From positions 1 through 64,000 of IMG/VR virus record IMGVR_UViG_3300032030_000041: a stretch of DNA of 64,000 nt. One strand, given 5' to 3'. Positions 1 through 12,858 of this stretch are shown here, one piece after another (within the stretch, counting starts at the first letter, position 1; each line of letters begins with the position of its first letter). The notes under the pieces were generated by a model that saw only the letters and a program-made list of their open reading frames with translations, did no database searches and was not told the DNA's origin. Source of the DNA: a virus (Duplodnaviria; Caudoviricetes). The position numbers and the translations under genes were made by a program.

Positions 1-4
1 GAAG

Positions 5-196
5 TTAGCTTTCGCTAACTTCCTCGATAATAACATTCGACAATTTGTAAATCTTAGTTATATCAAATTTACATCCGCACTTATCACAAGTACAAGTCCA
101 CCACTGTTCACCGCCGAACTGGTCGAAACCATCGCCATAGTCGCTTATTTCGTAATCTTCACATCCGCATTTAGGACAAGCCTCAGTGTACGTCAT
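5..196 (-). CDS. small Zn-ribbon protein (CPKC...CDKC), 63 aa
   Basis: ATG at 196 after AAGGA SD; two CxxC pairs; overlaps the end of the upstream gene. Confidence 0.75.
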   Translation of the reverse strand: MTYTEACPKCGCEDYEISDYGDGFDQFGGEQWWTCTCDKCGCKFDITKIYKLSNVIIEEVSES

Positions 197-521
197 TTTC
201 CTTTTCCTCCTTCTCTCTTTCGATAGGCCACGGAAATTCATCCAGAGGGCACCAATATTCAATTTCATTTCCGAACCAACTATCTGGCCCGTATTGGGCA
301 CTCCATGCCCATGGAACAGGATTATTACCTGCGACATCTTCCATTCTTTCTATGTATGCTCGTTTATTACCTTGGAGGAGTAAGGCTTCTCGTTCTTCTT
401 CTGTAATACCCTTATAAAAATATACTACATCAATACATTTATCGCCTTGAAAGGTAGAGAAGCCAACGACCTTTTCTCCATGATTGGGAAATTGTCCTAA
501 CTTGGTAGAACGCCAGTTCAT
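183..521 (-). CDS. hypothetical early protein, 112 aa
   Basis: ORF coupled to the upstream gene by an ATGA overlap. Confidence 0.75.
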   Translation of the reverse strand: MNWRSTKLGQFPNHGEKVVGFSTFQGDKCIDVVYFYKGITEEEREALLLQGNKRAYIERMEDVAGNNPVPWAWSAQYGPDSWFGNEIEYWCPLDEFPWPIEREKEEKENDVH

Positions 522-865
522 TCTTTTTCACCTACTTCCTTTTCCTTCGCCCTACGTTCCTTATCCTTCTTCGCCTTTTCGGCGCGAGCCTGCGCCTTGG
601 CTTCCTTTTCGGCCTGCTTGGCCTTGTAGGCGTTAATTTCGGACTGCATCAGTTCTTCAGCAGTCATGTCCTCACGCTCTTCGGCAACGATTGCGCCAAT
701 GCGAACGTACCGCTGAACACCATTCAAATCGGTAAGGATAACGCCATACTGACGGTCATTGACCTTGTCAAAGCCATAATCCGCAGGATTGCAGTCCTCA
801 AACAAGCACTGAAATACCTGTTCCCGCAGAGCCTTGTCAACCACGGTCTTAGAAATCTTAGCCAT
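518..865 (-). CDS. hypothetical protein with Lys/Glu/Ala-rich helical C-tail; probable remote paralog of 6668-7075
   Basis: ATG at 865 after AAACCAGAAAGGG leader; own sigmaA promoter at ~914-941. Confidence 0.85.
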   Translation of the reverse strand: MAKISKTVVDKALREQVFQCLFEDCNPADYGFDKVNDRQYGVILTDLNGVQRYVRIGAIVAEEREDMTAEELMQSEINAYKAKQAEKEAKAQARAEKAKKDKERRAKEKEVGEKE

Positions 866-1046
866 TTTAAATCCCTTTCTGGTTTGTGGTGTTTCCTTCA
901 CCTTTCGAGAGTATTATATACTATTTTGAAAGGGTTGTCAACCCCTTTTCTAAATTTATTATATATAAATTTTTGGCTTTTGTCAAAGGTGTTAGTCTTG
1001 ATTAACGGCGGCCGGCGCGCTGTATACTGTATACAAGATGTATCTA

Positions 1047-1071
1047 AAAAAAATACCGCCCGAAGGCGGTT
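1047..1071 (-). terminator. intrinsic terminator
   Basis: ACCGCC-TTCG-GGCGGT hairpin followed by a T run on the minus strand. Confidence 0.8.
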
Positions 1072-1102
1072 TGCTATTGGATAGACGTCATACCCTTTAG
1101 CG

Positions 1103-1175
1103 CCCACTCCTGCAGATTCGAACTGCTCCATTCAAGGGCTTTGCCCTTGTGCTCTTCCATTAAGCTAAGTAGTGG
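1103..1175 (-). tRNA. tRNA-like element / pseudo-tRNA with non-canonical anticodon arm
   Basis: Minus strand: acceptor CCACTAC/GGAGTGG, D-arm GCTT-AATGGAA-GAGC, arm CAAGGGC-AAA-GCCCTTG, T-arm GCAG-TTCGAAT-CTGC; no U33, no encoded CCA. Confidence 0.6.
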
Positions 1176-1200
1176 ATATGCCCCAAAGGGCTCGGAGGGC

Positions 1201-1527
1201 TTACGCCCTCCGATAGGTATTCGGCTTGCCTTCGATCTTCACCATCTCATCCTGCCACAGATGATTCAGAGCGTACTGAACCTTGCCCTTGCCCATACCA
1301 GTGGGCATTTCATCCTGAATCTGTTCGAAGATTTCGGCACAGGTCGCAGGAGTATCGGACAGAGCACCGATCACCAGATCGTGAATGCCCTCATAGGCTT
1401 CGGCATTCTTCGCCTTGGCTTCTGCGCCCTTGTTGATTTCCTTGGACAGTTCGTCCATGACTTCCTGATTGTCGTAGCCGAAGTTGGTCAGAGCGGTGAA
1501 GATGGTTTCAAAAGTCACTTTACGCAT
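1201..1527 (-). CDS. winged-helix-like protein, paralog 1 of 4 (KIEGKxNTY family), 108 aa
   Basis: ATG at 1527 after AAACCAGAAAGGA leader; promoter 1579-1607; PATCAEI...KGKVQYAL...KIEGKPNTY pattern. Confidence 0.85.
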   Translation of the reverse strand: MRKVTFETIFTALTNFGYDNQEVMDELSKEINKGAEAKAKNAEAYEGIHDLVIGALSDTPATCAEIFEQIQDEMPTGMGKGKVQYALNHLWQDEMVKIEGKPNTYRRA

Positions 1528-1616
1528 GATAGAATTCCTTTCTGGTTTGTGGAGTGTCCTTCTCCTCTTTTCATATTCATTATAGCACTTTTGTGCTGTA
1601 ATGTCAAGTGTTTTTT

Positions 1617-1677
1617 TCAGATGAGGGAGCGTCTTGACGCAAGGTTGAACCTTAGGGAGTGTCGCTCCCTCATCTGA
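1617..1677 (-). ncRNA. candidate small RNA closed by a perfect 15-bp stem
   Basis: TCAGATGAGGGAGCG...CGCTCCCTCATCTGA, starting just downstream of promoter TTGACA(1713)-N17-TATAAT(1690); no SD-ATG ORF. Confidence 0.55.
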
Positions 1678-1744
1678 CATCCTTATTATAGCATAGGATT
1701 CGCTTGCTGTCAAGAGGTTTTTTCGCATTTCTTTGAAAAATTTT

Positions 1745-1818
1745 CGTCCGAATGAACTTCCCATCACATTCTCACTATGGAGTAGTCAGTAGTAAGTTCT
1801 TTTTCTCTCCCTCTGACA
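1745..1818 (-). ncRNA. candidate small RNA
   Basis: Follows promoter TTGACT(1852)-N16-TATAAT(1830); GAACTT/AAGTTC stem; no convincing ORF. Confidence 0.4.
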
Positions 1819-1900
1819 GATATAATTATACTCGAATTTTAGGAAAAGTCAAGCATTTTTTCTGAAGAATACTGTATACAATCGCGGGCCGGCGCCCTCA

Positions 1901-2113
1901 TTAAGGGCGAGCGCCGCGGAATTTTTCTGGATGACTGTGCATATAATCCATCATTGCAGAAATTACTTCTTCTGTTCTTAAGTGCTCAGGGGGAACTTCA
2001 TCAAAGTTCCACCATCTAAAACAGAGATCGGAAAGAAACTGTTCGCGTTCTTCTTCACATTTATCATCATAAGGACAAAAGGCACAGATACCCATTCTCT
2101 TAACACTACACAT
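1901..2113 (-). CDS. small Cys-containing hypothetical protein, 70 aa
   Basis: TAATG coupling with the upstream ORF. Confidence 0.65.
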   Translation of the reverse strand: MCSVKRMGICAFCPYDDKCEEEREQFLSDLCFRWWNFDEVPPEHLRTEEVISAMMDYMHSHPEKFRGARP

Positions 2114-2250
2114 TATATTACAAACCTCACAATCGGACGATCTTCTTTCCTATACTTTGCAAACACGATAAAGCGCAACCAAAGGGCTTTCATTACGGGA
2201 AGATACCTCACAGTCTGTTCTCCCTCAAGATTCTTCAGATATACATTCAT
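2113..2250 (-). CDS. 45-aa hypothetical peptide (MNVYLKNLEGEQTVRYL...)
   Basis: AAGGTGAG SD; overlapping start/stop with both neighbours; below ORF-track cutoff. Confidence 0.65.
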   Translation of the reverse strand: MNVYLKNLEGEQTVRYLPVMKALWLRFIVFAKYRKEDRPIVRFVI

Positions 2251-2411
2251 TTTCTCACCTTCTTCCACATATCCCAAACGGTATCAACTGATACCCAAAT
2301 TAAAGTACCAAGATAATCATGCATGAGGAAAAGCATCATGAAAGGAGTGCGGGCAAACGCATTTCCTATAATAGTCCCAAGTGTTCGACTAATCATAATC
2401 GCCATCGTCAT
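2247..2411 (-). CDS. 54-aa hydrophobic peptide
   Basis: AAACCAGAAAGGA leader; promoter at ~2459-2485; ATGA overlap with the next gene. Confidence 0.6.
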   Translation of the reverse strand: MTMAIMISRTLGTIIGNAFARTPFMMLFLMHDYLGTLIWVSVDTVWDMWKKVRK

Positions 2412-2524
2412 CAAGTTCCTTTCTGGTTTAACCTGTTTTCCTTCAGTTCATGATTATATTATACTCATTTTTGCGCGAATGTCAACAGAAAAATTATTAC
2501 AATTCTGTTAAATCGGGCCGGCGC

Positions 2525-3190
2525 TCACTTGGAAGCCTTGGCACGCAAGGCTTCCAAGCATTTTGTAAAAATCTCTTTTTCAATTTCAACATCCTTAAGT
2601 CCTGTATGGGATTCGATGAAGTCGTTGTTGTTACTAATATAGCGCCAGAGGACTTCTGCGGTGAAACGAGGGCGAGGGATGGCGTGGTTTGTCATGTATT
2701 TGTTCTCCTTACAGAACGCAATATATTGTGGGTCTGCGCCAAAAACCTTTTTCGCGAGGGCGAGGCTATCAATCACCTTTACACCATATGGGATAAAGTA
2801 CCGCTTGCGTGATTTGGTTTGATAACGTATAGTCGCATTAAGAGCCTGAATGTCAAATCTGGCATTGTGCGCTACCATTGCCTGTACATTGTACTTATTG
2901 CACAGTTCTTTTACCACTTTATACATGCCCCAAGTATCCACGATCTTGTGGTTGCCCATTCGCATATCCTCAAGATACTGTGGGATTTTTTCGGCATAGT
3001 AGGCTTCTTTCATCTGTTCGGGCATCCTAAAAAAGACATCTTCATTTACTACGCTAAAGCGTTCTTTTTCGTTGCCGAACTCATCAATTACCGCTCCTCC
3101 AAGGTCATAAACCTGACCATTTTTTACATCCAACTGTCCATCAATTACGGGAGTGTTGCAAGTTTCGCTATCAAATACAAGGAAGTGCAT
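2525..3190 (-). CDS. DEDDh (DnaQ-like) 3'-5' exonuclease
   Basis: ExoI FDSET, ExoII HNARFD, ExoIII H-TGLKD motifs. Confidence 0.85.
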   Translation of the reverse strand: MHFLVFDSETCNTPVIDGQLDVKNGQVYDLGGAVIDEFGNEKERFSVVNEDVFFRMPEQMKEAYYAEKIPQYLEDMRMGNHKIVDTWGMYKVVKELCNKYNVQAMVAHNARFDIQALNATIRYQTKSRKRYFIPYGVKVIDSLALAKKVFGADPQYIAFCKENKYMTNHAIPRPRFTAEVLWRYISNNNDFIESHTGLKDVEIEKEIFTKCLEALRAKASK

Positions 3191-3399
3191 AGGGGTTGCC
3201 TTTCTGGTTTGTGTTGTTTTCCTTCAACTTTCATGTACTATTATAACATAGAAATGAAATTAGTCAAGGGGCAATTGTTACAAAAGTCTTAACTTTTCGG
3301 GCCGGCTGAAAAATCCTCATCAAGTTCGGCAAATGCGCCGGCGCTGGATACTGTATACAATATGCGGCAAAGAAAAAGGGCGCCGAAGCGCCCAAAGGA

Positions 3400-3717
3400 T
3401 TAAGCCTTGAGGGTATAGGTGTTAACCTTACCCTCGATCTTCTCGATCTCCTCACCCCAATAGTGAGACAGGCCATATACGATCTTGCCCTTCGGATAAC
3501 CAGTCTCATCGGCCAGTTCCTGCGCGGTAACGGGATTCTCCGCAGAGGTCAGAGCCTTGATCACGGCATCGTGAATCTCAGCGTAGACCGCCTGATTGGC
3601 TTCCTTCTGCGCATCGCCACGGGTGATTTCGCGGTTCAGTTCAGACAGCACTTCAGAATCCGCGTAACCATAACCAGTCAGAGCGTCCTTGATAGCGATC
3701 AGAGTAACTTTCTTCAT
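3400..3717 (-). CDS. winged-helix-like protein, paralog 2 of 4
   Basis: PVTAQELADETGYPKGKIVYGL...KIEGKVNTY; leader motif; promoter 3770-3798; terminator at ~3372-3394. Confidence 0.85.
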   Translation of the reverse strand: MKKVTLIAIKDALTGYGYADSEVLSELNREITRGDAQKEANQAVYAEIHDAVIKALTSAENPVTAQELADETGYPKGKIVYGLSHYWGEEIEKIEGKVNTYTLKA

Positions 3718-3829
3718 TGTTCAAATTCCTTTCTGGTTTGTAGGGTGTCCTTCCCTTTCTTTCGTGATTAGTATAACATAATTTGTGGGGTTTGTCAAGG
3801 GGTTTTGAGAAAAATCTCTAGAAAATTTT

Positions 3830-3957
3830 TCTCATCCTCGTGCGTTCCTATGTGGCCAATCTATCACAATTTTGTTGACATCTCCGTCTATTGCGACTTC
3901 CAACCGCCGCCCCACACAGAGAAAGTGGCTCAGAGGTTTTGCTCCCCTTTTGAACAT
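3830..3957 (-). ncRNA. candidate structured small RNA
   Basis: Follows TTGACA(3990)-N17-TATAAT(3967); TGTGTGG/CCACATA closing stem with internal hairpins; only a leaderless 41-codon ORF is possible. Confidence 0.4.
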
Positions 3958-4007
3958 CCTTATTATAGCACAGGATTTGCTGTTTGTCAAGGGTTTGAAG
4001 AAATTTT

Positions 4008-4113
4008 TCAGTCTGTTAGCACTATCTGATAACTTCCGAAGGTCGCGACCCTTCCACAGAGCAACCTATCCTTATTGAAGGAGCAGTTACGCTTTCCCTC
4101 GTCCCTTGGAACA
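4008..4113 (-). ncRNA. candidate structured small RNA
   Basis: Follows TTGACT(4146)-N16-TATACT(4124); hairpins such as GAAGGGTC-GC-GACCTTC; no SD-ATG ORF. Confidence 0.4.
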
Positions 4114-4203
4114 ATTATAGTATACCATAATTTTAGAAAAAGTCAACCCCTAATTTAAAAGTATACTGTATACAATCGGGCCGGCACGTTAGTGAGTGCT
4201 AAC

Positions 4204-4473
4204 TCACTTAAGATAGCACTCATACCATGCATAGTCGCCCCATATTCCATTTTCAAACTGCTCTTCTACATAATCACGCCAAGCGGCATCTTCTCCATCA
4301 TCAGTATTGGGATAATTTCTGCCTTCTACCCACCAATCAAAGTCACGACGAATTACTACATCATCATAATGATCATCAAACCATTTCTGACAATCGTCTT
4401 TGATTTTCTGCAAGTCCGTGACTGCATACATAGGTTCACCTTCGAGAGTTAGCACATAAATCTTAGTGGCCAT
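4204..4473 (-). CDS. acidic, Trp-rich hypothetical protein, 89 aa
   Basis: AAGGAG SD before ATG at 4473. Confidence 0.75.
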   Translation of the reverse strand: MATKIYVLTLEGEPMYAVTDLQKIKDDCQKWFDDHYDDVVIRRDFDWWVEGRNYPNTDDGEDAAWRDYVEEQFENGIWGDYAWYECYLK

Positions 4474-4474
4474 T

Positions 4475-4672
4475 TTATTCTCCTTCCACATCATCCAAAT
4501 TCAGCCAGTAATTCCAATCGCCCTGAAAGAATACTGCGAAATCATCGCAATCTGCCATCGGGTCATCAATGTGACAAATACCGCACTGATCGCAATAAGG
4601 GCAATCACCATAGGCATTTACAGTACAAAATGTTGGTTCTCCATTATAGGTTCCCTTCTTCACATCTCTCAT
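4475..4672 (-). CDS. small Cys-rich acidic protein (CPYCDQCGIC), 65 aa
   Basis: ORF in an operon; metal-binding Cys cluster. Confidence 0.7.
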   Translation of the reverse strand: MRDVKKGTYNGEPTFCTVNAYGDCPYCDQCGICHIDDPMADCDDFAVFFQGDWNYWLNLDDVEGE

Positions 4673-4829
4673 TTTGCTCTCTCTCCTTCAATCTGGCTCG
4701 TGCCTGTTTCCGTAAACGCTTCTTCAATCTTCGTCTGGCGGGCGTGCTCTGGTCAATCCACTTGCGACAACCTTTATTCAAGTCCCAAGCGGCGAGTTCA
4801 TCGAGTTTCTTGTACCTTGCTCTTTCCAT
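4644..4829 (-). CDS. small basic protein, 61 aa
   Basis: AGGAGG SD; promoter at ~4853-4881; Arg/Lys-rich. Confidence 0.7.
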   Translation of the reverse strand: MERARYKKLDELAAWDLNKGCRKWIDQSTPARRRLKKRLRKQARARLKEREQNERCEEGNL

Positions 4830-4918
4830 CCTTCATCCCTCCTGACACTATTAATTATACTCAGAATTAGAGAAAAGTCAAGGTGTAAAATTGTTAAATT
4901 TTTGTTACGGGCCGGCGC

Positions 4919-5425
4919 CTACCGCTGATCGTAGGCACCATAATCAATTAGTACCACATGACCTTTTTTCCATCCATAATTGAGATAATGAAGGTCATAC
5001 ATATTATGGCAAGAGCACCAATCGCTTTCTTCCACGGTCATATATTCCCAAGCATCCTGATCAGTGCGCCCGATGCCACGAATTAGGGGCATGATGTAGA
5101 AGGTCATGCCATCATACTGAAAAGGAGTAATCTTAGCGAACAGATAAGCGAACCCATCAGCTTCAGCTTCGGCATACATGGCCATTTCCTTCTCACAGCC
5201 ACCGAAGATTTCAATACTTCTGGGGCTCCAGTCGATCTTGACCACATAATCGGAGGTAATCAGAGCCACACGAGTCATACCATGAGATACCCGCACATTA
5301 GTATGATGCTCATAATTATAAGCATTTACAGCCCATTCGAAATCTTCAATGGTTTCCGCGTCGATCAGATAGGTAGCAATTCGCCGAATGAACTTCTGCG
5401 CCCGAACCTCGTAAGTGTTTCTCAT
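4919..5425 (-). CDS. minimal protein-kinase-like protein; ends in TAG used as a stop
   Basis: HGMTRVA G-loop-like, YVVKID, helix-C Glu (CEKE), DLHYLN catalytic loop, IDYG (DFG-like). Confidence 0.7.
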   Translation of the reverse strand: MRNTYEVRAQKFIRRIATYLIDAETIEDFEWAVNAYNYEHHTNVRVSHGMTRVALITSDYVVKIDWSPRSIEIFGGCEKEMAMYAEAEADGFAYLFAKITPFQYDGMTFYIMPLIRGIGRTDQDAWEYMTVEESDWCSCHNMYDLHYLNYGWKKGHVVLIDYGAYDQR

Positions 5426-5528
5426 GCTCAATTCCTCCCTTTCAGCATAGATATTCTATCATGTTTTTGAGAAAAAAGCAAGAGGAAAATTATTACAATT
5501 GTATTAACTTTTCGGGCCGGCGCGAGTG

Positions 5529-5981
5529 TTAGCGTGCGCTAACACCGAGCAGATTCTTCAAGATCTCAATGATTTCAACGGGTTCATATGCTTTGTCCTG
5601 CCATGCTTTGCGGTTGCCTTCTTCATCATCGAACAGGATGCCACCGCCGCAAGTCATGTATTTATTGGTACCATAACGGACAACCTTAATCTCGTCCCAC
5701 TCAACAGAAGGAAGATGTCTTGCGAGCCAGTCACGCTTTGCTACCTCTACGGCCAGATTATACATTTCGCTACCGCATTTAGAAGTCCAGCTGATAATCC
5801 CAATTTTCCAGCCCTGCGCCTGAAGGCGATTTAACAGACGAGCAAAAAGCGAGAAGTTCAACATGGTCTGGGCATTAGCGTAAGGAAACACATCTTCCTT
5901 CATGAGGTAGTCAAGCCAACCCTCGACCGCATACAGATTAGCAATCGTTCCATCCATATCGAACCAAATTTCTTTCTTCAT
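5529..5981 (-). CDS. HAD-superfamily 5'(3')-deoxyribonucleotidase-like phosphatase
   Basis: FDMDGT motif I, ISWT motif II, K, FDD motif IV. Confidence 0.85.
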   Translation of the reverse strand: MKKEIWFDMDGTIANLYAVEGWLDYLMKEDVFPYANAQTMLNFSLFARLLNRLQAQGWKIGIISWTSKCGSEMYNLAVEVAKRDWLARHLPSVEWDEIKVVRYGTNKYMTCGGGILFDDEEGNRKAWQDKAYEPVEIIEILKNLLGVSAR

Positions 5982-6092
5982 TCCTTCAACCCCTTTCTCT
6001 TGGTACATTAGAAGTATAGCATAGAATATGTTATAAGTCAAGCAGTAAAATGTTACAAAAGTCTTAACTCTGAGGGCCGGCGCAAGGGTAGA

Positions 6093-6503
6093 TTACTCTA
6101 CCCAAATCCAATACTTGCGCTTGACCTGAACCTGTTTCTTATAATAGCCATATACCTCTTTCAACTTAAACGGATTCGAAATAGTGGCTTTTCTTCCTTC
6201 ATAATTAATGGTAATGGTGTCGGGTTCACTGCAGGGAAGCTCCACTTCATTCTCATCTAACGGCCCATGATATCCGCGGGCTTCAACCGTGATCGTTTCC
6301 TCCTTGCGGATTTCCTTGCGAATTTTTCCACCCTGCTCTAGAGCTTCCAGAATTGTGGAAGTTGCACGCGTGGAGTGAATCAGATCCTGATTGGAAACTT
6401 CCTTGTTCTTCTCAATAAAAGCCATCACTTGCAACAGTTTCATATACATATCTTTGGCACTGCGAATGGTGGGGATGCTGAGCGCGATTTCGTTATTTGT
6501 CAT
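6093..6503 (-). CDS. hypothetical protein, possible HTH N-terminus, 136 aa
   Basis: Leader motif and promoter at ~6571-6599. Confidence 0.75.
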   Translation of the reverse strand: MTNNEIALSIPTIRSAKDMYMKLLQVMAFIEKNKEVSNQDLIHSTRATSTILEALEQGGKIRKEIRKEETITVEARGYHGPLDENEVELPCSEPDTITINYEGRKATISNPFKLKEVYGYYKKQVQVKRKYWIWVE

Positions 6504-6667
6504 ATGATTTCCCTTTCTGGTTTTTTGAGGTATCCTTCCTCTTTCTTTGGTTCCCTCTTGGAACATGATTAGTATATCACACTATAGCATACTTGTCAAC
6601 ACTTTTTATAAAAAATTTTTGCGCCGGCGGAGTTAGCTATAACTAATTGATGACAAAAGAAAAAGGA

Positions 6668-7075
6668 TCACGCCTTGGGCGTGTCCTTAATCTTGCGGAG
6701 TTCTTTCAAGCCCTTGTTTGCTTCGGCAAGGGCTTTCTTTTCCTCCCGTGCTTTCTTATCCTTGGCAATTTTCGCCTGTTTCTTGGCATCTGCTTCTGCC
6801 TTTTTCTGCGCCTTTTCCTCGCAGTCGATCTTGTAGTCCTCGGCGGCAGAGTACCCATCATATGGGGTATAGCCACCCTCGCCATTACGAGTCCCACGGG
6901 GAATTGAAACCTTGATAACAGCCCATGTTTCGTTGCCATCGGGGTCAAGGCAAGGCACGGCGATCTCGTTTGCGCTCACGGGCAGGGCATCGGTTTCCTT
7001 TTCGGTTTCGATAGCCTTCGCAATCAGAGCGAGAAAATCATTGCGAATCAGGTTTTCCATCTGGGCTTTAGTCAT
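6668..7075 (-). CDS. hypothetical protein with basic helical tail; probable remote paralog of 518-865
   Basis: AAAGGAG SD; D-x-x-G-x-x-x-(W/Y) strand and AKKQAKIAKDKK tail resemble 518-865. Confidence 0.8.
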   Translation of the reverse strand: MTKAQMENLIRNDFLALIAKAIETEKETDALPVSANEIAVPCLDPDGNETWAVIKVSIPRGTRNGEGGYTPYDGYSAAEDYKIDCEEKAQKKAEADAKKQAKIAKDKKAREEKKALAEANKGLKELRKIKDTPKA

Positions 7076-7307
7076 TAGGCATCGCTCCTTTCTTATTACA
7101 AAGGGATTATATCACAATTTCGGGAATCTGTCAAGAGGAATTTTTTCTCTTTCTCTTGATCTGAATATATTATATAATAAATTTTGATTTTTGTCAAGAA
7201 TTTTTTTGAAAGAATACTGTATACAATTTCGTGCCGCGCGCCGGCAAGTTAGTCATGACTAACTTGCGGACAAAGAAAAAGCCCACCCATCGGGGTGGGC
7301 TTGATTA

Positions 7308-7640
7308 TTACGCCCGAGTGTAGGAATTAACCTTGCCCTCGTGCTTGACGACTTCGGACTCCCAGTAATGCCCCAGAGCATACTGAACCTTCGCCTTAGA
7401 GAAACCCATGGGGAGCAGCTTGTCCTTAACAGCTTCAAACAGCTCCGCAACAGTCACAGGAATATCGCCCAGCTCGCTCAGCACGATCTCCTTCGCCTGC
7501 TCATACAGCTCGCGGTTCGCCTGAGCCTTCTCAGCTCCGCGGTTCAGCTCCGCAACCAGCTCGTTGCGGACTTCCGCCAGCTCGCTGATGCGGTTGGTGT
7601 CGATGTAATTCACGATGGTCTGCATGGTGGTCTTCTTCAT
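7308..7640 (-). CDS. winged-helix-like protein, paralog 3 of 4
   Basis: PVTVAELFE...KAKVQYALGHYW...KHEGKVNSY; leader motif; promoter 7693-7721; terminator ~7274-7301. Confidence 0.85.
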   Translation of the reverse strand: MKKTTMQTIVNYIDTNRISELAEVRNELVAELNRGAEKAQANRELYEQAKEIVLSELGDIPVTVAELFEAVKDKLLPMGFSKAKVQYALGHYWESEVVKHEGKVNSYTRA

Positions 7641-7742
7641 AATCATTTCCCTTTCTGGTTTGTGGGGTTTTCCTTCCCCTGTTTTCGTATTTATTGTACC
7701 ACGGTTTCGGGAGTCTGTCAAGAGGTTTTCCAAACTTTTTTT

Positions 7743-7840
7743 GAACGAACAATCTTTGAAGTGACCTTTTAAACACTCCCATTTCTCGGCTTACTTATCG
7801 CTTGTAAGCGCCCTGTGAAGGGGTTCGTTCTCCTCTTGAC
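7743..7840 (-). ncRNA. candidate multibranch small RNA
   Basis: GAACGAAC/GTTCGTTC closing stem with internal hairpins; promoter TTGACA(7875)-N17-TATAAT(7852). Confidence 0.5.
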
Positions 7841-7884
7841 ACAGTCATTATAGCACACTGTGCTTATAATGTCAAGTGTTTTTT

Positions 7885-7981
7885 TTGTTCTTTGGGAGGC
7901 GTGTTTCGTGTGCGTCCACACAGGGTTGTGCGCCCATCCCATGAAGGCTCGCCTTGGTTTCTCCTGTCTCCCTCGGAACAA
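7885..7981 (-). ncRNA. candidate multibranch small RNA
   Basis: TTGTTC/GAACAA plus GGGAG/CTCCC closing stems; promoter TTGACT(8013)-N16-TATAAT(7991). Confidence 0.5.
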
Positions 7982-8082
7982 TTATATTATAGCACGAATC
8001 AGGAAAAAGTCAACACTTTTTTTGAAAAAAAGATTGTTAAGTTTTTCACAAGCGGCGGGCCGGCACGAAAGTAGACCGAAGT

Positions 8083-8337
8083 CTACTTGTACAGAAGAGA
8101 AAGGAAATAGACATTGAGGACAACACTTGAAAGATGCATCAAAATATCATTGATATGTCGATGCTGTGAAAGGTCTTTGCACACACCGAAGAGGGCAATT
8201 GCAAGTCCGAACCATGACACCTGAAGGCCGAAGAGCATAATCAGAACAACGTTTAAAATGGTAATGCCGCAACGAACGTCATTCCATTCAAAGCGATAAG
8301 GGGTTTCAATCCCGAACCAATTTTTAATCGTCTGCAT
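8083..8337 (-). CDS. small membrane protein; ends in TAG used as a stop inside a terminator hairpin
   Basis: Hydrophobic segments; AGGAG SD; AAGTAGAC-TTCG-GTCTACTT terminator. Confidence 0.75.
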   Translation of the reverse strand: MQTIKNWFGIETPYRFEWNDVRCGITILNVVLIMLFGLQVSWFGLAIALFGVCKDLSQHRHINDILMHLSSVVLNVYFLSLLYK

Positions 8338-8554
8338 TTTCATCTCTCCTTGCCCATTCAAGATATTGCTTGCTCATTCTTTCAATATTATCAGGGGTAA
8401 AGCCATCGTTAATATTATACCAAGTGGAAACATAAAAGGGGATACCATGACGAGTTGCCCAATTCGCAATCGCATTGACAAGGCGAGTAACTATTAGACG
8501 AAACCAGACATATTTCCACAATCCGCGGAAATGATTACCATAGAACATTCTCAA
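8324..8554 (-). CDS. hypothetical protein, ~76 aa
   Basis: AAAGGA SD; promoter at ~8587-8614. Confidence 0.65.
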   Translation of the reverse strand: MRMFYGNHFRGLWKYVWFRLIVTRLVNAIANWATRHGIPFYVSTWYNINDGFTPDNIERMSKQYLEWARRDENADD

Positions 8555-8716
8555 TCCATCCTTTCCGTTCCCTTTGGAACAATGTTATTATATCACGTTA
8601 TATAAGAATGTCAATAGGAAAATTGTTACAATTCTATTAACAATCGCGGCCGGCCGAGTTAGTGGCGGCTAACTGATGTGAAAAGAAAAACCCTCCCGTA
8701 AGGGAGGGCGCAAGGA

Positions 8717-9043
8717 TTACGCCTTGCGGACATAGGTGTTAACCTTGCCCTCAATCTTTTCAATCTCGTCCTTCCACAGACGAGTCACCGCATACTGCAG
8801 ATTGCCCTTCGTGAAGCCCTTGGGCAGTTCGCCATCGACCGCTTCGAAAATCTCGGTGATCGTGGCAGGAGCATCCATCGCACCCAGAACAATGGGCTTC
8901 GCTTCGGCATACATGGTTTCCTTTGCCTGCTTTGCTTCAGCGTTGCGGTTGATTTCCTTCTCGAACTCAGCGAGAATCTCAGCGTTGTCGAAACCATTGG
9001 CAGTCAGGAAGGAGTAAACGGTGGTGTAGGTGGTGTTCTTCAT
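8717..9043 (-). CDS. winged-helix-like protein, paralog 4 of 4
   Basis: PATITEIFE...KGNLQYAVTRLW...KIEGKVNTY; leader motif; promoter 9095-9123; terminator ~8684-8708. Confidence 0.85.
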   Translation of the reverse strand: MKNTTYTTVYSFLTANGFDNAEILAEFEKEINRNAEAKQAKETMYAEAKPIVLGAMDAPATITEIFEAVDGELPKGFTKGNLQYAVTRLWKDEIEKIEGKVNTYVRKA

Positions 9044-9133
9044 AGTGGTAATCCTTTCTGGTTTGGGAGGTTTTCCTTCCTCTGTTGTGTATTCATTATA
9101 TCACTTTCGTGATCTAATGTCAAGGGTTTTTTC

Positions 9134-9216
9134 TGAAGGAGAGGCGCTTGACCGAAATTTATATAGCGCATCCGCGTCTCCCGAAGGTGTTCTTTCTTTG
9201 AACTATCTCTCCTTCA
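9134..9216 (-). ncRNA. candidate multibranch small RNA with a 10-bp closing stem
   Basis: TGAAGGAGAG/CTCTCCTTCA; internal GTTC/GAAC, CC-TTCG-GG and GCGCT/AGCGC arms; promoter 9225-9253. Confidence 0.55.
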
Positions 9217-9275
9217 ATGTCTTTATTCTACCACATTTCGCGGTGAATGTCAAGGGTTTCGGGAAAATTTTTTTC

Positions 9276-9372
9276 AACGGTCGTTCGGGAAGGTCGCCGC
9301 TTGCGCTTGCGGGATTGGGGGATCAGGCCCAACCTTCCCGTTCTTTCAGAGGGCGATCCATCTCCCTCTGAC
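9276..9372 (-). ncRNA. candidate small RNA with two strong stems
   Basis: TCAGAGGG/CCCTCTGA and CGGGAAGGT/ACCTTCCCG; promoter 9379-9407. Confidence 0.5.
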
Positions 9373-9427
9373 ATTGTTATCTTACCACATTCCGTGGGGC
9401 TTGTCAAGGGGTTTCTGAAACTTTTTT

Positions 9428-9477
9428 TCGTTTCTCGTTCGGGTCTGCTCTCGCTCGCCCTTCCCCTTGAGAACGAT
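9428..9477 (-). ncRNA. candidate short RNA
   Basis: Promoter TTGACT(9509)-N17-TATACT(9486); ends pair imperfectly (CGTTCTC/GAGAAACG). Confidence 0.35.
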
Positions 9478-9561
9478 ATAAGTATATCATGGATTTGGTA
9501 TATAGTCAAGTGTTTTTTGAAAAAAAGTTTGTTAAGTTTTTAACAAGCGGGCCGGCGCAAG

Positions 9562-9730
9562 TAAAAAGCGGCGAGTGATCAATTCGCCGCTTCCCTCATT
9601 TCCCCACCGAGTTCGGGACGTTCGGTGAAGGATGGGCACGCATCATTTCAATTATGCCTATTAGCAACGTGCCTTGCTAACTTTGGCTTAGTAGTGCGGT
9701 GGACTCACTTCCCATCTCTCCTTTCGACAT
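9562..9730 (-). ncRNA. candidate ~165-nt structured RNA with possible pseudoknot and its own terminator
   Basis: TGCTATAAT extended -10 at ~9735-9743; TTAGCAA-GGCACG-TTGCTAA loop complementary to downstream CGTGCC; CACCGA/TCGGTG stem; AAGCGGCGA/TCGCCGCTT terminator. Confidence 0.5.
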
Positions 9731-9804
9731 GGTTATTATAGCATAAATATGTTACAAAAGAAGAACGAAAGTATTACAATTGTGTTAAATACTCGGGCCG
9801 GCGC

Positions 9805-10056
9805 TCAGCCGATAAGGGCTGAACGACTATAATTGAAACATGTATACGAAGAAGAAATAGGGCACGTTAATATATTGGCAATATATTCTACAATATTAAG
9901 GCTCTTGAAATAACAATTTACGCAATGAAAGCCAAAAGTATTTTCAAGAAATTCAGTGACTTCGCTTGCGCTATAGTCTTTCACAGTAGAAAAATAAATC
10001 AATACCACCTGATTGGTGTTGATGTCTTTTACTCCTGCCCTCCAATAACGTGCCAT
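9805..10056 (-). CDS. hypothetical protein, 83 aa
   Basis: AAGGAAG SD; upstream promoter ~10091-10119. Confidence 0.65.
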   Translation of the reverse strand: MARYWRAGVKDINTNQVVLIYFSTVKDYSASEVTEFLENTFGFHCVNCYFKSLNIVEYIANILTCPISSSYTCFNYSRSALIG

Positions 10057-10175
10057 GCTTTGCTTCCTTCCTTCCTCTTAGGATGCTTTTATTATATCCG
10101 AGAATTGCTATAAAGTCAAGTATAAATTTATTACAATTCTATTAAGTTTTGGCGTGCCGGCGTGACTACGGATGA

Positions 10176-10304
10176 TTAGCAATCATCCGTGTAGCATCCC
10201 GCATAGGGATCAAAACCGCACTCAAGGTTGTCCCAATCCTCGTAATAGTCGGATTCGGGATAATCTTCTTCATACTCTTCTTCAAACATCTCTTCGTAAT
10301 CCAT
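10176..10304 (-). CDS. 42-aa extremely acidic peptide (MDYEEMFEEEYEEDYPESDYYEDWDNLECGFDPYAGCYTDDC)
   Basis: AAGGAGG SD; 18 D/E and no K/R; below ORF-track cutoff. Confidence 0.75.
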   Translation of the reverse strand: MDYEEMFEEEYEEDYPESDYYEDWDNLECGFDPYAGCYTDDC

Positions 10305-10320
10305 TTTCAAATCCTCCTTC

Positions 10321-10461
10321 TTAAGCCCAAGACTGAGCAAACCGATTCAGGCGGCGGCGATCAATGCGATCCATTTTCTTCCGCAGCTTGCGGCAATTAG
10401 TGTGGCGGGTCAGATTAGTGTTGCTCGGAAACATGGTGTCTTTCTTATAAGCGCGAGTCAT
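10321..10461 (-). CDS. 46-aa basic peptide (…RKLRKKMDRIDRRRLNR…)
   Basis: AAAGGAGG SD; promoter ~10489-10516. Confidence 0.7.
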   Translation of the reverse strand: MTRAYKKDTMFPSNTNLTRHTNCRKLRKKMDRIDRRRLNRFAQSWA

Positions 10462-10574
10462 CTTGCTGACCTCCTTTCGACATGATTATAATACCATACT
10501 TATGGGAAAATGTCAATACTTTTTTGAAAATAATTTTCGGGCCGGCGCAAAAAGAGTAGACCGAAGTCTACTCA

Positions 10575-10778
10575 TTATATTACTTCTCTTTCTTCACAAC
10601 TAAGCCCGATATAATCATCGTTGTATAAATCTTCTATACATTCTTCAAGGGTCTGAAAAGAATCTTCATCATAATTAGATTTTAATTGTGCTTTTAACCG
10701 CTCCATTGCTTTTTCCCGAGTGCTATAAATTCCAAGCAGTTCGGCATTATCGGTATCCCATGCAAGATATACTTTCAT
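10575..10778 (-). CDS. hypothetical protein, 67 aa (MKVYLAWD...LLGIYSTREKA)
   Basis: AAGGAGG SD; terminator ~10547-10573. Confidence 0.75.
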   Translation of the reverse strand: MKVYLAWDTDNAELLGIYSTREKAMERLKAQLKSNYDEDSFQTLEECIEDLYNDDYIGLSCEEREVI

Positions 10779-10779
10779 A

Positions 10780-10995
10780 TTAAACCTCCTTCGCATAATA
10801 CGCGAGATTCGTACCAGTTTCAGGTGAGCAGTTATAATAAAAGATCGCATTACATACTTTTTCAAAATCCACGTCATTGGTCTTTGTCAACCAACTCGCA
10901 AGAGGACTATCCACGCGCACACGATTCGGAATAATCATAATCTCTTTACCCTCGTTGTACAGTTTCCGTGCCATGCCCTTCGTGATCTTAATCAT
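10780..10995 (-). CDS. hypothetical protein, 71 aa
   Basis: GAGGG SD; promoter ~11021-11049. Confidence 0.75.
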   Translation of the reverse strand: MIKITKGMARKLYNEGKEIMIIPNRVRVDSPLASWLTKTNDVDFEKVCNAIFYYNCSPETGTNLAYYAKEV

Positions 10996-11104
10996 TACGC
11001 ATCCCTCACTTTCTGAAATTATTATACTATGGTTTTGAGAAAAAGTCAAGCACTAAATTTATTACAAATTTATTAAATCCGCGGGCCGGCTGATGGGCGA
11101 GGGA

Positions 11105-11341
11105 TTATTCCCTCGCCATGACCTCTTCGTAGTCAAGGCCCAACCATTCGCAGACATCCTCAAACTGGAACCAGAAGAAATCATTGATGTCAGTAGTGCT
11201 CCAGTACTCTTCGCCGAAAGAAACTGATTCTATATCTTCTTCAACTTGATCAAGTTCTTCGGGAGTAAGTTTCGCGGCATTGGTAGCGGCACCGCCCCAG
11301 AACTGGAAATCTCTCAAACTCTTTTCAATCGTCATCGTCAT
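11105..11341 (-). CDS. acidic hypothetical protein, 78 aa
   Basis: GAGGAGG SD; promoter ~11373-11401. Confidence 0.8.
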   Translation of the reverse strand: MTMTIEKSLRDFQFWGGAATNAAKLTPEELDQVEEDIESVSFGEEYWSTTDINDFFWFQFEDVCEWLGLDYEEVMARE

Positions 11342-11449
11342 CTTTCGTGTCCTCCTCTCTTGGAACAATGTAAGTATACTATGACTAAGGATAAAAGTCA
11401 ACAAGAAAATTGTTACAATTGTATTAACAATTCCATGCCGGCTGGCGTG

Positions 11450-11632
11450 TTAGTCGCACACAACCAGATCGATGTTGACGACAAAGCCACCAATGTCAAG
11501 AGCCTGCCAAATTGCATCTGCCTGACGATCGACCTGCCAAGCATCATAGAACCATGCTTTTCCATCTACGATGGTATATACAACCCACGTGTTGCTCTTA
11601 GCGAAAGCGGGGAGATTGTTGATCTTAATCAT
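11450..11632 (-). CDS. hypothetical protein, ~60 aa
   Basis: AAAGGA SD; promoter ~11666-11694. Confidence 0.65.
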   Translation of the reverse strand: MIKINNLPAFAKSNTWVVYTIVDGKAWFYDAWQVDRQADAIWQALDIGGFVVNIDLVVCD

Positions 11633-11754
11633 TTGGAGTACCATCCTTTCCCTTTCTATGGCTATATTATAAGCGATTTTTCTTTTTCTGTCAATAACAA
11701 AAGTATTAAGTTTTTGTCATAGTTTTGTAACAATTACGCTAGCCGGCGCGCCCA

Positions 11755-12003
11755 TAAAAATAGCCACCCGTTCGGGTGGCACTTGCTCGCTTGAGGGACG
11801 TTTTCTTCAAAAGTACGTGTCAGAGGTGGGCTTGTTGCGGTTTAGGATACCAGATCCACCCCTTCAACCGCTGGGTGGTCTTGGCGCACATTTATATACC
11901 GCAAAGTATCCCTCTTTCGCCTTGCGGTGGTTTCATCGGCTTGGTCTTACGGACTCTCATGGGTCTCACCCGTTGTGGGCTTTGCCTCGCCTCAACCTGT
12001 GCC
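11755..12003 (-). ncRNA. candidate ~245-nt highly structured ncRNA with its own promoter and terminator
   Basis: TTGACA(12035)-N17-TATAAT(12012); many hairpins (GGGTGAGACCC, CCGCAAGG/CTTTGCGG, CCACCC/GGGTGG); GCCACCCG terminator; no SD-linked ORF. Confidence 0.55.
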
Positions 12004-12307
12004 TGTATTATATCACAGGCGGTTGGTCTTGTCAAGTACTTTTAGAAACTTTTTTGGGCTAGGATCCTCAATGAGGATCCGTACCAATACCATTCCTCGG
12101 TGGTAGCGCCCAGACGCTTCGTTTACCGACCTTCCGCGCCATCGCGTCCTGCGCAGGTGGTCATTGCTTCCCATCGGTTTCTGGCCTCCCCTCTTGACAT
12201 GATTATAATATCACAACCATAGAAAAAAGTCAATTACGAAAGTCTAAACTAATTGTCATACTTTCGTAACATTTCCGGGCCGGCTGACGGGCCGGCGCGG
12301 CAAGGGA

Positions 12308-12586
12308 TTAACCCTCGCAGTCAATCACCTCGCCAGTATAAATATTGAATTCTTTGTGGTCATTATAAAGCTGTTTTGCCAACTGATAAGTAAATCCTAA
12401 TTCGCGCATGAACCAACCAATATGCTTGATCGTGGTGCGAGAGTAAAGGCCATGGACATGAAGCCAACCTTCTTCATCAATAGAAATTACAGTCGTGGTG
12501 TAACTAATAAGAGCCTGCGCGCCATTTTCCCAAATTGCCTTTACGGCTTGTGCGTTTTCGTGCCCCGTGAATTTAGTGATCATCAT
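12308..12586 (-). CDS. hypothetical protein, ~92 aa (YSRTTIKHI motif)
   Basis: AAAGGA SD; clean ORF. Confidence 0.8.
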   Translation of the reverse strand: MMITKFTGHENAQAVKAIWENGAQALISYTTTVISIDEEGWLHVHGLYSRTTIKHIGWFMRELGFTYQLAKQLYNDHKEFNIYTGEVIDCEG

Positions 12587-12717
12587 CGTCTTTCATTCCT
12601 TTCCTGTCCCCTTCGGACAAGTATATATTATCACACATTGCGCATAAAATCAAGCATAAAATTGTTACAAATCTATTAAGTTTGCGCGCTGGCTGACAGA
12701 TCGGGCCGGCTGGCGGA

Positions 12718-12858
12718 TTATTCCATAAACAGCAGGCCCAGCCCAGACAGAGCTCCTCCCAGCGCACAGCCCCACAGCCATTCATTGCCCATCAGCAGCG
12801 CAGCGGTCAGGCAGAAGCAGGCGATAAACATTCCCACACAGCTCACAAGTTTTTCCAT
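12718..12858 (-). CDS. 46-aa membrane peptide with two hydrophobic segments
   Basis: AGGAGG SD; promoter ~12882-12909. Confidence 0.7.
   Translation of the reverse strand: MEKLVSCVGMFIACFCLTAALLMGNEWLWGCALGGALSGLGLLFME

What the first reader, a model, noticed from the sequence alone, without database searches (positions are those of the whole stretch)
1201..9510. Four-times repeated cassette: tandem promoter-driven structured small RNAs upstream of a paralogous winged-helix protein
Seen: four paralogous ~105-110-aa genes (1201-1527, 3400-3717, 7308-7640, 8717-9043) share PxT..E, KGK/NxxY(A/G)L and KIEGKxNTY. Each has its own consensus promoter and is preceded by 2-3 more stacked consensus promoters, the most upstream always TTGACT. 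Each extra promoter fires into a 50-130-nt stretch with no SD-linked ORF, most with complementary ends (15-bp stem 1617/1677, 8-bp 7743/7830, 10-bp 9134/9216, 9-bp 9286/9340) and internal hairpins. The RNA units are unrelated in sequence but the architecture is conserved, and the other early genes mostly have one promoter each. Inference: a diversifying sRNA-plus-protein system, for example RNA decoys against host defences (RNA anti-CRISPR or antitoxin-mimic style) chaperoned by a wHTH/Zalpha-like RNA-binding protein. I do not recognise this as a described system.
Basis: partly seen in the sequence, partly recalled or inferred. Interest (0 to 1): 0.92.

Follow-up and report, generated by a model that had tools for sequence, protein, structure and literature searches.

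The report
Promoter-stacked structured RNA modules before phage gene
In an uncultured rumen phage, four copies of a small winged-helix gene are each driven by three or four strong promoters in a row, separated by conserved folded RNA segments; the layout recurs in about a hundred related phage contigs, but the segments are probably nested mRNA leaders rather than proven free small RNAs.

Summary
Four paralogous 105-110-aa winged-helix genes each sit behind 3-4 near-consensus host-type promoters. The nine inter-promoter segments have no convincing ORF and no terminator.

The layout is conserved and specific. In two sets of related contigs, 65-66% of family genes have two or more upstream promoters, against 7-9% of neighbouring ORFs (odds ratio 25).

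The segments behave as selected RNA structures:
- As a class they fold better than shuffles (mean z -1.6, against -0.3 for coding controls).
- Several recur at 84-96% identity next to genes only 57-72% identical.
- Three families show compensatory changes.

All family genes also share a covarying 5' hairpin leader. tRNA genes preferentially follow them.

Discrete small RNAs, a decoy role and RNA binding by the protein remain unshown. Metatranscriptome contigs run from gene through modules, and the protein is acidic.

Best reading (0.5): an early expression platform with nested, 5'-protected structured leaders, shuffled at repeated promoter modules. A trans-acting RNA role is still possible (about 0.3).

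This scan has noted similar ORF-less early promoter units in a related TAG-recoded phage.

The parts
1201..1527 (-). winged-helix paralog 1 (108 aa)
   Evidence: ORF; family alignment; AlphaFold pLDDT 95, C-terminal winged helix
3400..3717 (-). winged-helix paralog 2 (105 aa)
7308..7640 (-). winged-helix paralog 3 (110 aa)
8717..9043 (-). winged-helix paralog 4 (108 aa)
1825..1852 (-). cassette promoter of paralog 1 (TTGACT-16-TATAAT), behind boundary motif GCCGGCCCG at 1885-1893
1714..1818 (-). unit U1a, about 105 nt, weakly structured (z +0.6); 95% identical copy in L119
1685..1713 (-). internal promoter 12/12 with ATCCT/AGGAT inverted repeat around the -10
1608..1678 (-). unit U1b: 15-bp closing stem starting 1 nt from the predicted 5' end, inner hairpin, z -7.6. 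The L104 copy keeps the stem through an A-U to G-C change and a paired A:U insertion
1579..1607 (-). proximal promoter of paralog 1 (12/12)
1528..1572 (-). conserved proximal leader: GGAG/CUCC hairpin with AAGGACA loop, then CAAACCAGAAAGGA SD
1102..1175 (-). tRNA-shaped RNA with sealed anticodon arm, co-transcribed behind paralog 1; terminator at 1055-1070
4119..4146 (-). cassette promoter of paralog 2 (TTGACT), behind GCCGGCCCG at 4177-4185
3991..4112 (-). unit U2a, 122 nt, z -1.1; skipped in variant RNA contigs (joints 3993>4102, 3974>4103)
3962..3990 (-). internal promoter 12/12, ATCCT/AGGAT type
3799..3955 (-). unit U2b, 157 nt, z -2.5; covered continuously with the gene by RNA-library contigs 3512-3981 and 3614-3993
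3770..3798 (-). proximal promoter of paralog 2
3718..3763 (-). proximal leader (AGGG/CCCU hairpin); terminator of the gene at 3378-3393
7986..8013 (-). cassette promoter of paralog 3 (TTGACT), behind GCCGGCCCG at 8056-8064
7876..7979 (-). unit U3a, 104 nt; 94-95% identical in L004/L008 next to genes only 57-59% (DNA) identical to paralog 3
7847..7875 (-). internal promoter 12/12 with CACAGT/ACTGTG repeat around the -10
7722..7840 (-). unit U3b, 119 nt; four homologues; three base pairs with compensatory double changes
7693..7721 (-). proximal promoter of paralog 3
7641..7686 (-). proximal leader (GGGG/CCCC hairpin); gene terminator at 7279-7302
9481..9509 (-). cassette promoter of paralog 4 (TTGACT), behind GCCGGCCCG at 9548-9556
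9408..9474 (-). unit U4a, 67 nt; 95% copy in L039; skipped in a variant contig (joint 9414>9471)
9379..9407 (-). internal promoter (10/12)
9254..9372 (-). unit U4b, 119 nt, z -2.2; homologues in L024 and L115 keep 100% of 27 pairs, three with compensatory changes
9225..9253 (-). internal promoter (11/12)
9124..9218 (-). unit U4c, 95 nt, closing stem of at least 10 bp, z -3.0; 92% copy in L012 with one compensatory pair; skipped in a variant contig (joint 9083>9222)
9095..9123 (-). proximal promoter of paralog 4 (12/12)
9044..9088 (-). proximal leader (GAGG/CCUC hairpin); gene terminator at 8690-8709

Best explanation
Each winged-helix gene is the core of one of the phage's strongest early transcription units.

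Anatomy. The unit begins with the ordinary cassette promoter (TTGACT class, just behind the GCCGGCCCG boundary motif found at almost every early cassette). It then carries one to three inserted modules. Each module has four parts:
- an A/T-rich UP-like tract;
- a near-consensus host sigma-70/sigma-A-type promoter;
- a GA-rich, Shine-Dalgarno-like tract without a start codon, right after the start site;
- a family-specific folded RNA of 50-160 nt.

Consequence. No terminator lies between modules, so every promoter reads into the gene. The result is a nested set of mRNAs with different structured 5' ends. All end in the same conserved 45-55-nt leader (a small hairpin with an AAGGAMA loop, then CAAACCAGAAAGGA).

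Inferred function:
- Promoter output adds up to very high early expression.
- 5'-terminal stems and start-less SD tracts protect the 5' ends, as known 5' stabilisers do in Gram-positive hosts.
- tRNAs or tRNA mimics placed behind the gene use the same expression platform.
- Modules are gained, lost and swapped by recombination between the repeated promoter sequences.

Shown: the anatomy, its conservation, its specificity for this gene family, selection on the stems, and continuous RNA-library contigs.

Inferred: additive expression, stabilisation, and early timing.
For: Promoters and cassette map.

No terminator and no strong-SD ORF between promoters.

RNA-library contigs. Contigs from two sheep-rumen metatranscriptome runs of one sample run from inside the genes through leaders, internal promoters and units (3512-3981, 3614-3993, 1537-1800). 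Summed contig depth is highest over paralogs 1, 2 and 4.

Stacking is family-specific:
- 51/78 family genes against 37/423 other ORFs.
- Replicated in 63 non-redundant metagenome contigs: 59/89 against 37/513, odds ratio 25, p 7e-34.
- 75 of 104 ORF-less units precede a family gene.

5' ends are paired:
- U1b's stem starts 1 nt from the predicted start site.
- 5'-3' pairing of units exceeds permuted partners, p 4e-4.
- The proximal leader hairpin is kept with 10 different complementary stem sequences in 130 of 135 leaders.

Start-less SD sequences and 5'-terminal stem-loops are documented mRNA stabilisers, including in phage SP82 early RNA (PMC7509114).

Variant contigs that skip exactly one unit or a whole stack, with joints at the promoter modules.

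tRNAs follow 27/173 family genes against 4/677 other ORFs.
Against: A simple stabiliser or expression booster does not need dozens of unrelated module families of 100-160 nt with several hairpins. Each family is conserved at 84-96% and keeps its own stems by compensatory change.

In some relatives the same slot holds a real tRNA gene (tRNA-Ser in L018, L095 and L096). That must be cut out of the transcript, so module RNAs may also be released.

Contigs cannot show RNA ends, strand or abundance, and DNA may be present in RNA libraries.

The host, and therefore its RNase set, is not known. The only hint is one small contig binned to an Acutalibacteraceae MAG.
Confidence: 0.5

Rival explanations
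1. The modules are genes for trans-acting small RNAs. Each structured unit is released from the nested transcripts by processing (RNase III at the long closing stems, RNase P/Z next to tRNA-like parts, or 5'-exonuclease trimming up to a stem). It then acts on a host or phage target, for example as a decoy against a defence system. The winged-helix protein may be its binding partner. The diversity and turnover of unit families would reflect an arms race.
For: - Units as a class are structured: mean z -1.61 against -0.26 for coding controls, p 3e-10.
- There are many unrelated families, each conserved across phages at higher identity than the adjacent gene.
- Compensatory changes occur in U1b, U3b, U4b and U4c.
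- Presence/absence varies between near-identical phages.
- The same slot holds true tRNAs in relatives, and tRNAs or tRNA mimics follow the gene.
- The same unit family can sit before different genes.
- A stand-alone RNA with its own terminator lies next to cassette 4 and is conserved in three other contigs.
Against: - No terminators lie at unit ends.
- RNA-library contigs are continuous with the gene.
- No unit resembles any Rfam family.
- No systematic complementarity to the gene's translation start region was found.
- The protein is acidic, and its fold match is generic.
- No target is known.
Confidence: 0.28
2. The feature works mainly at the DNA level. The stacked promoters and the palindromes in and around them are regulatory sites. 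The winged-helix paralogs (or another early protein) bind inverted repeats over the -10 boxes of the internal promoters, to autoregulate or time the burst of expression. Alternatively, the promoter arrays soak up host RNA polymerase.
For: - 44 of 153 internal TTGACA promoters that fire into ORF-less units have an inverted repeat of at least 5 nt flanking the -10. The figure is about 5% for other promoters and for shuffled controls.
- One type, ATCCT...AGGAT, recurs 26 times, including upstream of paralogs 1 and 2.
- The protein has a winged-helix DNA-binding-type fold.
- Some unit families carry an invariant 10-nt palindrome.
Against: - Compensatory changes and a paired insertion in long stems point to RNA (or hairpin) structure rather than fixed operators.
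- The distance from the invariant palindrome to the next promoter varies from 21 to 42 nt.
- The ATCCT/AGGAT type may simply be one inherited promoter family.
- No binding has been shown.
Confidence: 0.12
3. The stacks are neutral by-products: leftover promoter modules that piled up when recombination between repeated promoters deleted the small genes once lying between them.
For: - Each unit starts with the same promoter-plus-SD module that in ordinary cassettes precedes a gene.
- In some relatives a small gene does lie between two of the promoters (L016).
- Joints at promoter modules show frequent deletion and replacement.
- PeSL cassettes in T4-type phages behave this way (PMC2839356).
Against: - Stacking is 25-fold enriched at one gene family rather than spread over cassettes.
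- Units are more structured than controls.
- Units are conserved at 84-96%.
- Units keep their stems by compensatory change.
Confidence: 0.07

Closest known systems
Tandem major early promoters A1, A2, A3 of coliphage T7 with their non-coding leader before gene 0.3 (own knowledge)
   Same: Several strong host-type promoters stand in a row, in the same direction, with no gene between them. All read into the first highly expressed early gene.
   Different: Here each promoter carries its own structured RNA module of 50-160 nt, conserved and swapped between phages. The layout is repeated four times in one genome and tied to one paralogous gene family. Transcription has not been measured.
5' mRNA stabilisers of Gram-positive bacteria and their phages: SP82 early-RNA polypurine/SD-like element, ermC and aprE leaders, 5'-terminal stem-loops (PMC7509114)
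   Same: An SD-like purine tract without a start codon lies close to the 5' end. Stems begin within a few nucleotides of the predicted start site.
   Different: No half-life has been measured. In several units the purine tract is itself paired, so 30S binding is doubtful. The modules are much larger and more diverse than a stabiliser needs.
PeSL (promoter-early stem-loop) mobile regulatory cassettes of T4-type phages (PMC2839356)
   Same: Repeated strong sigma-70-like promoters next to stem-loops bound small early cassettes and serve as recombination points for modular shuffling. Here the boundary is hairpin + GCCGGCCCG + TTGACT promoter, and variant contigs join exactly at the promoter modules.
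   Different: PeSLs separate genes. The internal modules here separate non-coding structured RNAs and lack terminators.
Stable small RNAs made with phage tRNAs (T4 species 1 and 2 RNAs in the tRNA region) and phi29 pRNA from an early promoter (own knowledge)
   Same: These are phage-encoded structured non-coding RNAs expressed from early host-type promoters, some co-transcribed with tRNAs and released by processing.
   Different: No processing or accumulation has been shown here. There is no sequence or Rfam similarity. The units lie upstream of a protein gene.
Type III toxin-antitoxin RNA arrays (ToxI) and RNA anti-CRISPRs
   Same: Short structured RNAs are encoded next to a small protein gene or driven by their own promoters in phage accessory regions.
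   Different: The units are not tandem repeats of one sequence. No endoribonuclease-type partner is present, and no unit resembles a CRISPR repeat in Rfam.

Membership tests
Tandem early promoters with shared non-coding leader (T7 A1-A3 type) | Two or more strong host-type promoters, same orientation, no ORF or terminator between them, upstream of an early gene | tested here: met
Tandem early promoters with shared non-coding leader (T7 A1-A3 type) | All promoters active and reading into the gene | tested here: inconclusive
   RNA-library contigs bridge units and gene, but contigs show neither starts nor strand
5' mRNA stabiliser (SD-like element or 5'-terminal stem-loop) | SD-like purine tract without start codon, or a stem, within a few nt of the 5' end | tested here: met
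   start sites are predicted, not mapped
5' mRNA stabiliser (SD-like element or 5'-terminal stem-loop) | Lengthens half-life of the downstream mRNA | not testable with these tools
   needs rifampicin chase with and without modules
PeSL-type mobile regulatory cassette | Repeated promoter plus stem-loop at cassette borders | tested here: met
   hairpin + GCCGGCCCG + TTGACT promoter at about 17 borders
PeSL-type mobile regulatory cassette | Insertions, deletions and replacements between relatives end at these repeats | tested here: met
   joints 1571>1813, 3993>4102, 9083>9222, 9414>9471; L002 against L003
Bacterial/phage small RNA gene | Own promoter and a defined 3' end (terminator or processing site) giving a discrete RNA | tested here: not met
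   A promoter is present, but there is no intrinsic terminator at any of the nine unit ends. Processing is not testable
Any Rfam family | Covariance-model match | tested here: not met
   no hit in the units at gathering or at E up to 1; only the tRNA-like element at 1104-1174 matches
Type III toxin-antitoxin (ToxIN-like) | Tandem direct repeats of one RNA unit upstream of an endoribonuclease toxin | tested here: not met
   units are unrelated in sequence; the protein is a winged helix
Winged-helix fold | Three-helix bundle plus beta-hairpin wing | tested here: met
   pLDDT 95; residues about 35-108 align to cullin WHB, Fur, PadR and Zalpha at Z 7-9
Zalpha (Z-DNA/Z-RNA binding) domain | Specific similarity standing above other winged helices, and the conserved contact residues | tested here: inconclusive
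   Zalpha chains score Z 6.9-8.0, tied with many unrelated winged helices. Contact residues were not mapped. The family is acidic, median pI 4.9
Pfam DUF6958 | Score above gathering cut-off | tested here: not met
   25-27 bits against cut-off 27 in some relatives; no hit for the four window proteins

The most novel reading that the evidence does not exclude
The winged-helix cassettes are dedicated RNA-expression platforms of a large clade of TAG-recoded rumen phages. On this reading they hold a fast-turning library of dozens of structured non-coding RNA families, each with its own promoter, together with tRNAs and anticodon-less tRNA mimics. The RNAs are released by processing and work with the co-encoded winged-helix protein as an RNA-binding partner, for example as decoys or protectors against host RNA-targeting or tRNA-targeting defences.
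Probability: 0.18. Interest if true: 0.85.

Novelty: new variant of a known kind. Interest (0 to 1): 0.62.

Why it matters
If the modules only boost and stabilise expression, this is an unusually elaborate, modular version of tandem early promoters. It also marks the winged-helix family (thousands of members, viral only, function unknown) as probably the most heavily expressed early product of a widespread group of rumen phages with a split genetic code.

If the modules are released RNAs, these phages carry a large, undescribed repertoire of structured non-coding RNAs, none of them in Rfam. These are organised like anti-defence gene islands and physically coupled to tRNAs, tRNA mimics and one protein family.

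Either way, three things are directly testable:
- the covarying leader hairpin;
- the unit families;
- the gene-tRNA linkage.

Tried and rejected
- Phage record search by DNA (megablast, 12 kb): no match.
- Pfam, PHROGs and PDB sequence searches: nothing significant for the four proteins. ESM Atlas and BFVD gave only uncharacterised viral clusters.
- Homodimer prediction of the protein: no verdict, score 0.21 below the mark, so it says nothing either way.
- Complementarity of units to the translation start regions of the four genes: no consistent signal.
- U1b hairpin as a terminator: rejected. It is followed by an A-run on the minus strand and preceded by the T-run on the plus strand.
- Micro-ORF reading. 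The 18-codon frame in U1b is frameshifted in the L104 copy by the same paired insertion that keeps the stem. The 57-codon frame from 7942 runs across a promoter and is cut to about 20 codons in L008.
- A first regex parse of the leaders failed and was replaced by a structural parse.
- Depth per bin in the RNA runs sums contigs of related phages, so I do not use it to rank genes beyond noting the pattern. Bins without cover are not interpreted.
- Host assignment: only one 3.9-kb contig in an Acutalibacteraceae MAG carries a family member. This is too weak to name a host.

Full report
**Setting.** The window is the first 64 kb of a single 95,086-bp phage contig.
- Bases 1-14,300 form a block read entirely on the minus strand.
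- It has higher G+C than the rest and holds about 38 near-consensus sigma-70-type promoters: 67 promoter-like sites against 23.3 +/- 5.5 in shuffles.
- Reading TAG as sense turns the plus-strand genes between 17 and 53 kb, which are fragmented under the standard code, into contiguous long frames, one of 4,856 codons.
- The four genes studied here all end in TAA. Together with the host-type promoters, this fits an early region.

**Observation.**
- The four paralogous ORFs (1201-1527, 3400-3717, 7308-7640, 8717-9043, minus strand) are real and are 45-48% identical to paralog 1.
- Each has a proximal promoter about 80 nt before its ATG. Upstream lie two (paralogs 1-3) or three (paralog 4) further promoters scoring 10-12 of 12, and the outermost is always TTGACT.
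- The nine stretches between promoters (67-157 nt) contain no frame with a strong Shine-Dalgarno sequence and no terminator-like site on the transcribed strand.
- They are unrelated to one another.
- Eight of the nine units fold better than their dinucleotide shuffles, and four reach z of -2 or lower.
- End-to-end pairing clearly exceeds permuted partners in four of the nine.

**The outer promoter is not special to these genes.**
- A cassette map and a motif search show that almost every early cassette is built the same way: end hairpin, GCCGGCCCG (17 times on the minus strand; 32 matches with up to one mismatch on both strands, against 3.5 expected), an A/T-rich tract, then a TTGACT-class promoter.
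- In ordinary cassettes the GA-rich sequence behind that promoter is the ribosome-binding site of the first gene.
- In the winged-helix cassettes the same sequence leads into non-coding RNA and further TTGACA-class promoters.

**Conservation and specificity.**
- The protein family is large: more than 2,500 clusters, with no function-bearing name from any source.
- It is viral only in the ESM Atlas and almost absent from 185,579 species genomes, with a single hit.
- In 40 IMG/VR loci a promoter lies about 80 nt upstream in 38, and a second at 175-245 nt in most.
- Counting promoters in the intergenic space before every ORF, 51 of 78 family genes have two or more, against 37 of 423 other ORFs in the same loci.
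- This was replicated in 63 non-redundant metagenome contigs: 59 of 89 against 37 of 513, odds ratio 25, p 7e-34.
- Of 104 ORF-less inter-promoter units, 75 precede a family gene. About half of the remainder precede one other recurrent gene type, represented in the window by 865..518 and 7075..6668.

**Are the units selected structures?**
- As a class, 101 ORF-less units have mean z -1.61 (40% below -2). Coding segments from the same loci have mean z -0.26, p 3e-10.
- Units fall into families shared between phages.
- Seven of the nine window units have copies elsewhere at 84-96% nucleotide identity, beside family genes that are only 57-72% identical.
- U1b: the copy in L104 keeps the 15-bp stem through an A-U to G-C change and a paired insertion of A in one arm and U in the other. 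The same insertion destroys the only small frame in the unit.
- U3b: three pairs show double changes, with 96.6% of cells paired; 3 of 500 shuffles reach the observed covariation.
- U4b: all 27 pairs are kept in three sequences despite 18 substitutions in the more distant copy (L024), and three pairs show double changes.
- U4c: one compensatory pair.
- The samples are small, so this is good but not conclusive evidence for selection on base pairing.
- No unit matches Rfam.

**A second, cleaner RNA element.** All family genes share a proximal leader.
- In 135 distinct leaders, 130 have a stem of at least 4 bp closing an AAGGAMA(A) loop.
- The stem occurs in ten different, always complementary, sequence versions. 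The four window copies are GGAG/CUCC, AGGG/CCCU, GGGG/CCCC and GAGG/CCUC.
- The loop variant AACGA always comes with AAACGAG downstream instead of AAACCAG (117:18:0). This may reflect pairing between loop and downstream sequence, or shared descent.
- The same leader precedes several other early genes.

**Leaders or free RNAs?**
- Favouring leaders: there are no terminators. Unit 3' ends are A/T tracts that serve as UP-like elements of the next promoter.
- Contigs from two sheep-rumen metatranscriptome runs of one sample cover gene, leader, internal promoters and units without a break (3512-3981, 3614-3993, 1537-1800). Summed depth peaks over paralogs 1, 2 and 4. Contigs cannot show ends, strand or level, and DNA may contaminate these libraries.
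- Start-less SD-like tracts and 5'-terminal stems are known stabilisers, including in phage SP82 early RNA (PMC7509114). Here the stems start within a few nucleotides of the predicted start sites.
- Favouring released RNAs: the number and complexity of unit families.
- Single units are present in some near-identical phages and absent in others (joints at 1571>1813, 3993>4102, 9083>9222 and 9414>9471).
- In relatives the same slot can hold a real tRNA-Ser gene.
- tRNAs cluster directly behind family genes: 27 of 173 against 4 of 677 other ORFs, mostly tRNA-Lys(CTT). In the window that position holds a tRNA-shaped RNA with a sealed anticodon arm.

**The protein.**
- The AlphaFold model has pLDDT 95: three N-terminal helices, then a winged helix from about residue 35.
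- Structural matches are generic. Cullin WHB, Fur, PadR, Zalpha and many others all score Z 7-9.
- The family is acidic (median pI 4.9), and the winged-helix part carries a net charge of 0 to -3.
- Nothing shows whether it binds RNA, DNA or protein.
- One DNA-level hint: 44 of 153 internal promoters have an inverted repeat around the -10, mostly ATCCT...AGGAT, against about 5% in controls.

**Verdict.**
- The architecture is real, non-random, conserved and specific to this gene family, and the RNA segments are under structural selection.
- Most likely (0.5) it is a modular early expression platform producing nested mRNAs with protected, structured 5' leaders. Recombination at repeated promoter modules reshuffles it, as with PeSL cassettes (PMC2839356).
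- A trans-acting RNA role (0.28) is not excluded and would be the more interesting outcome.
- Earlier notes of this scan describe the same kind of ORF-less early promoter units, palindrome-bounded cassettes and mini-tRNA slots in related phages. What is new here is the family-specific association, the covariation, the leader hairpin and the tRNA linkage.

Noticed in passing
window 1528-1572, 3718-3763, 7641-7686, 9044-9088 (minus); also about 872-899, 3199-3225, 6507-6523: A conserved 45-55-nt early leader: a covarying 4-5-bp hairpin with an AAGGAMA loop, then CAAACCAGAAAGGA. The loop base and a downstream base co-vary 117:18:0 in 135 leaders, which may mean a pseudoknot-like contact. It is not in Rfam.
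   Followed up: partly
window 1102-1175 (minus); L042, L054, L067, L104 and others about 80-250 nt after the family gene: tRNA genes, mostly tRNA-Lys(CTT), sit directly behind winged-helix genes: 27/173 against 4/677 other ORFs. The window has an anticodon-sealed tRNA-shaped RNA in that slot, and L115 carries a near-identical one.
   Followed up: partly
window 17000-53400 (plus strand) and parts of 54-64 kb: Late genes are only open if TAG is read as sense (one frame of 4,856 codons), while the four winged-helix genes end in TAA. ARAGORN finds no suppressor tRNA in the 95-kb contig.
   Followed up: partly
window 1885-13615, minus strand (about 17 sites): GCCGGCCCG lies between the end hairpin and the TTGACT promoter at almost every early cassette border. 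Many related contigs carry a TTAGATGTTAAACATCTAA-type palindrome at the same place instead.
   Followed up: partly
window 1685-1713, 3962-3990, 7847-7875, 12007-12035 (minus): Internal promoters with inverted repeats flanking the -10 box (ATCCT/AGGAT, CACAGT/ACTGTG, CCTGT/ACAGG). Across loci this holds for 29% of promoters that fire into ORF-less units, against 5% of controls. They look like operators.
   Followed up: partly
window 9557-9740 (minus): A stand-alone RNA of about 170 nt with an extended -10 promoter and a true terminator. It is conserved at 87-90% in L012, L052 and L115, where it lies about 330 nt downstream of the family gene.
   Followed up: partly
window 11695-12000, 13432-13746, 13782-14253 (minus): Further promoter-driven stretches of 300-470 nt without an SD-linked ORF. 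A short part of the first matches L024 and L012; no homologue covering half or more of any was found.
   Followed up: no
window 518-865 and 6668-7075 (minus), promoters at 986/941 and 7197/7134: Two other early genes have twin 12/12 promoters only 45 and 63 nt apart. Both proteins end in Lys/Glu/Ala-rich tails. Relatives of these genes account for about half of the stacked promoters not linked to the winged-helix family.
   Followed up: partly
L001:2670-2795, L005:2787-2916, L014:2789-2920 and four more: A unit family (absent from the window) with a variable hairpin core and an invariant 18-nt box, AACCTCACTTGCAAGTCC, containing a 10-nt palindrome. In L018 it is followed by a tRNA-Ser gene before the proximal promoter.
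   Followed up: partly
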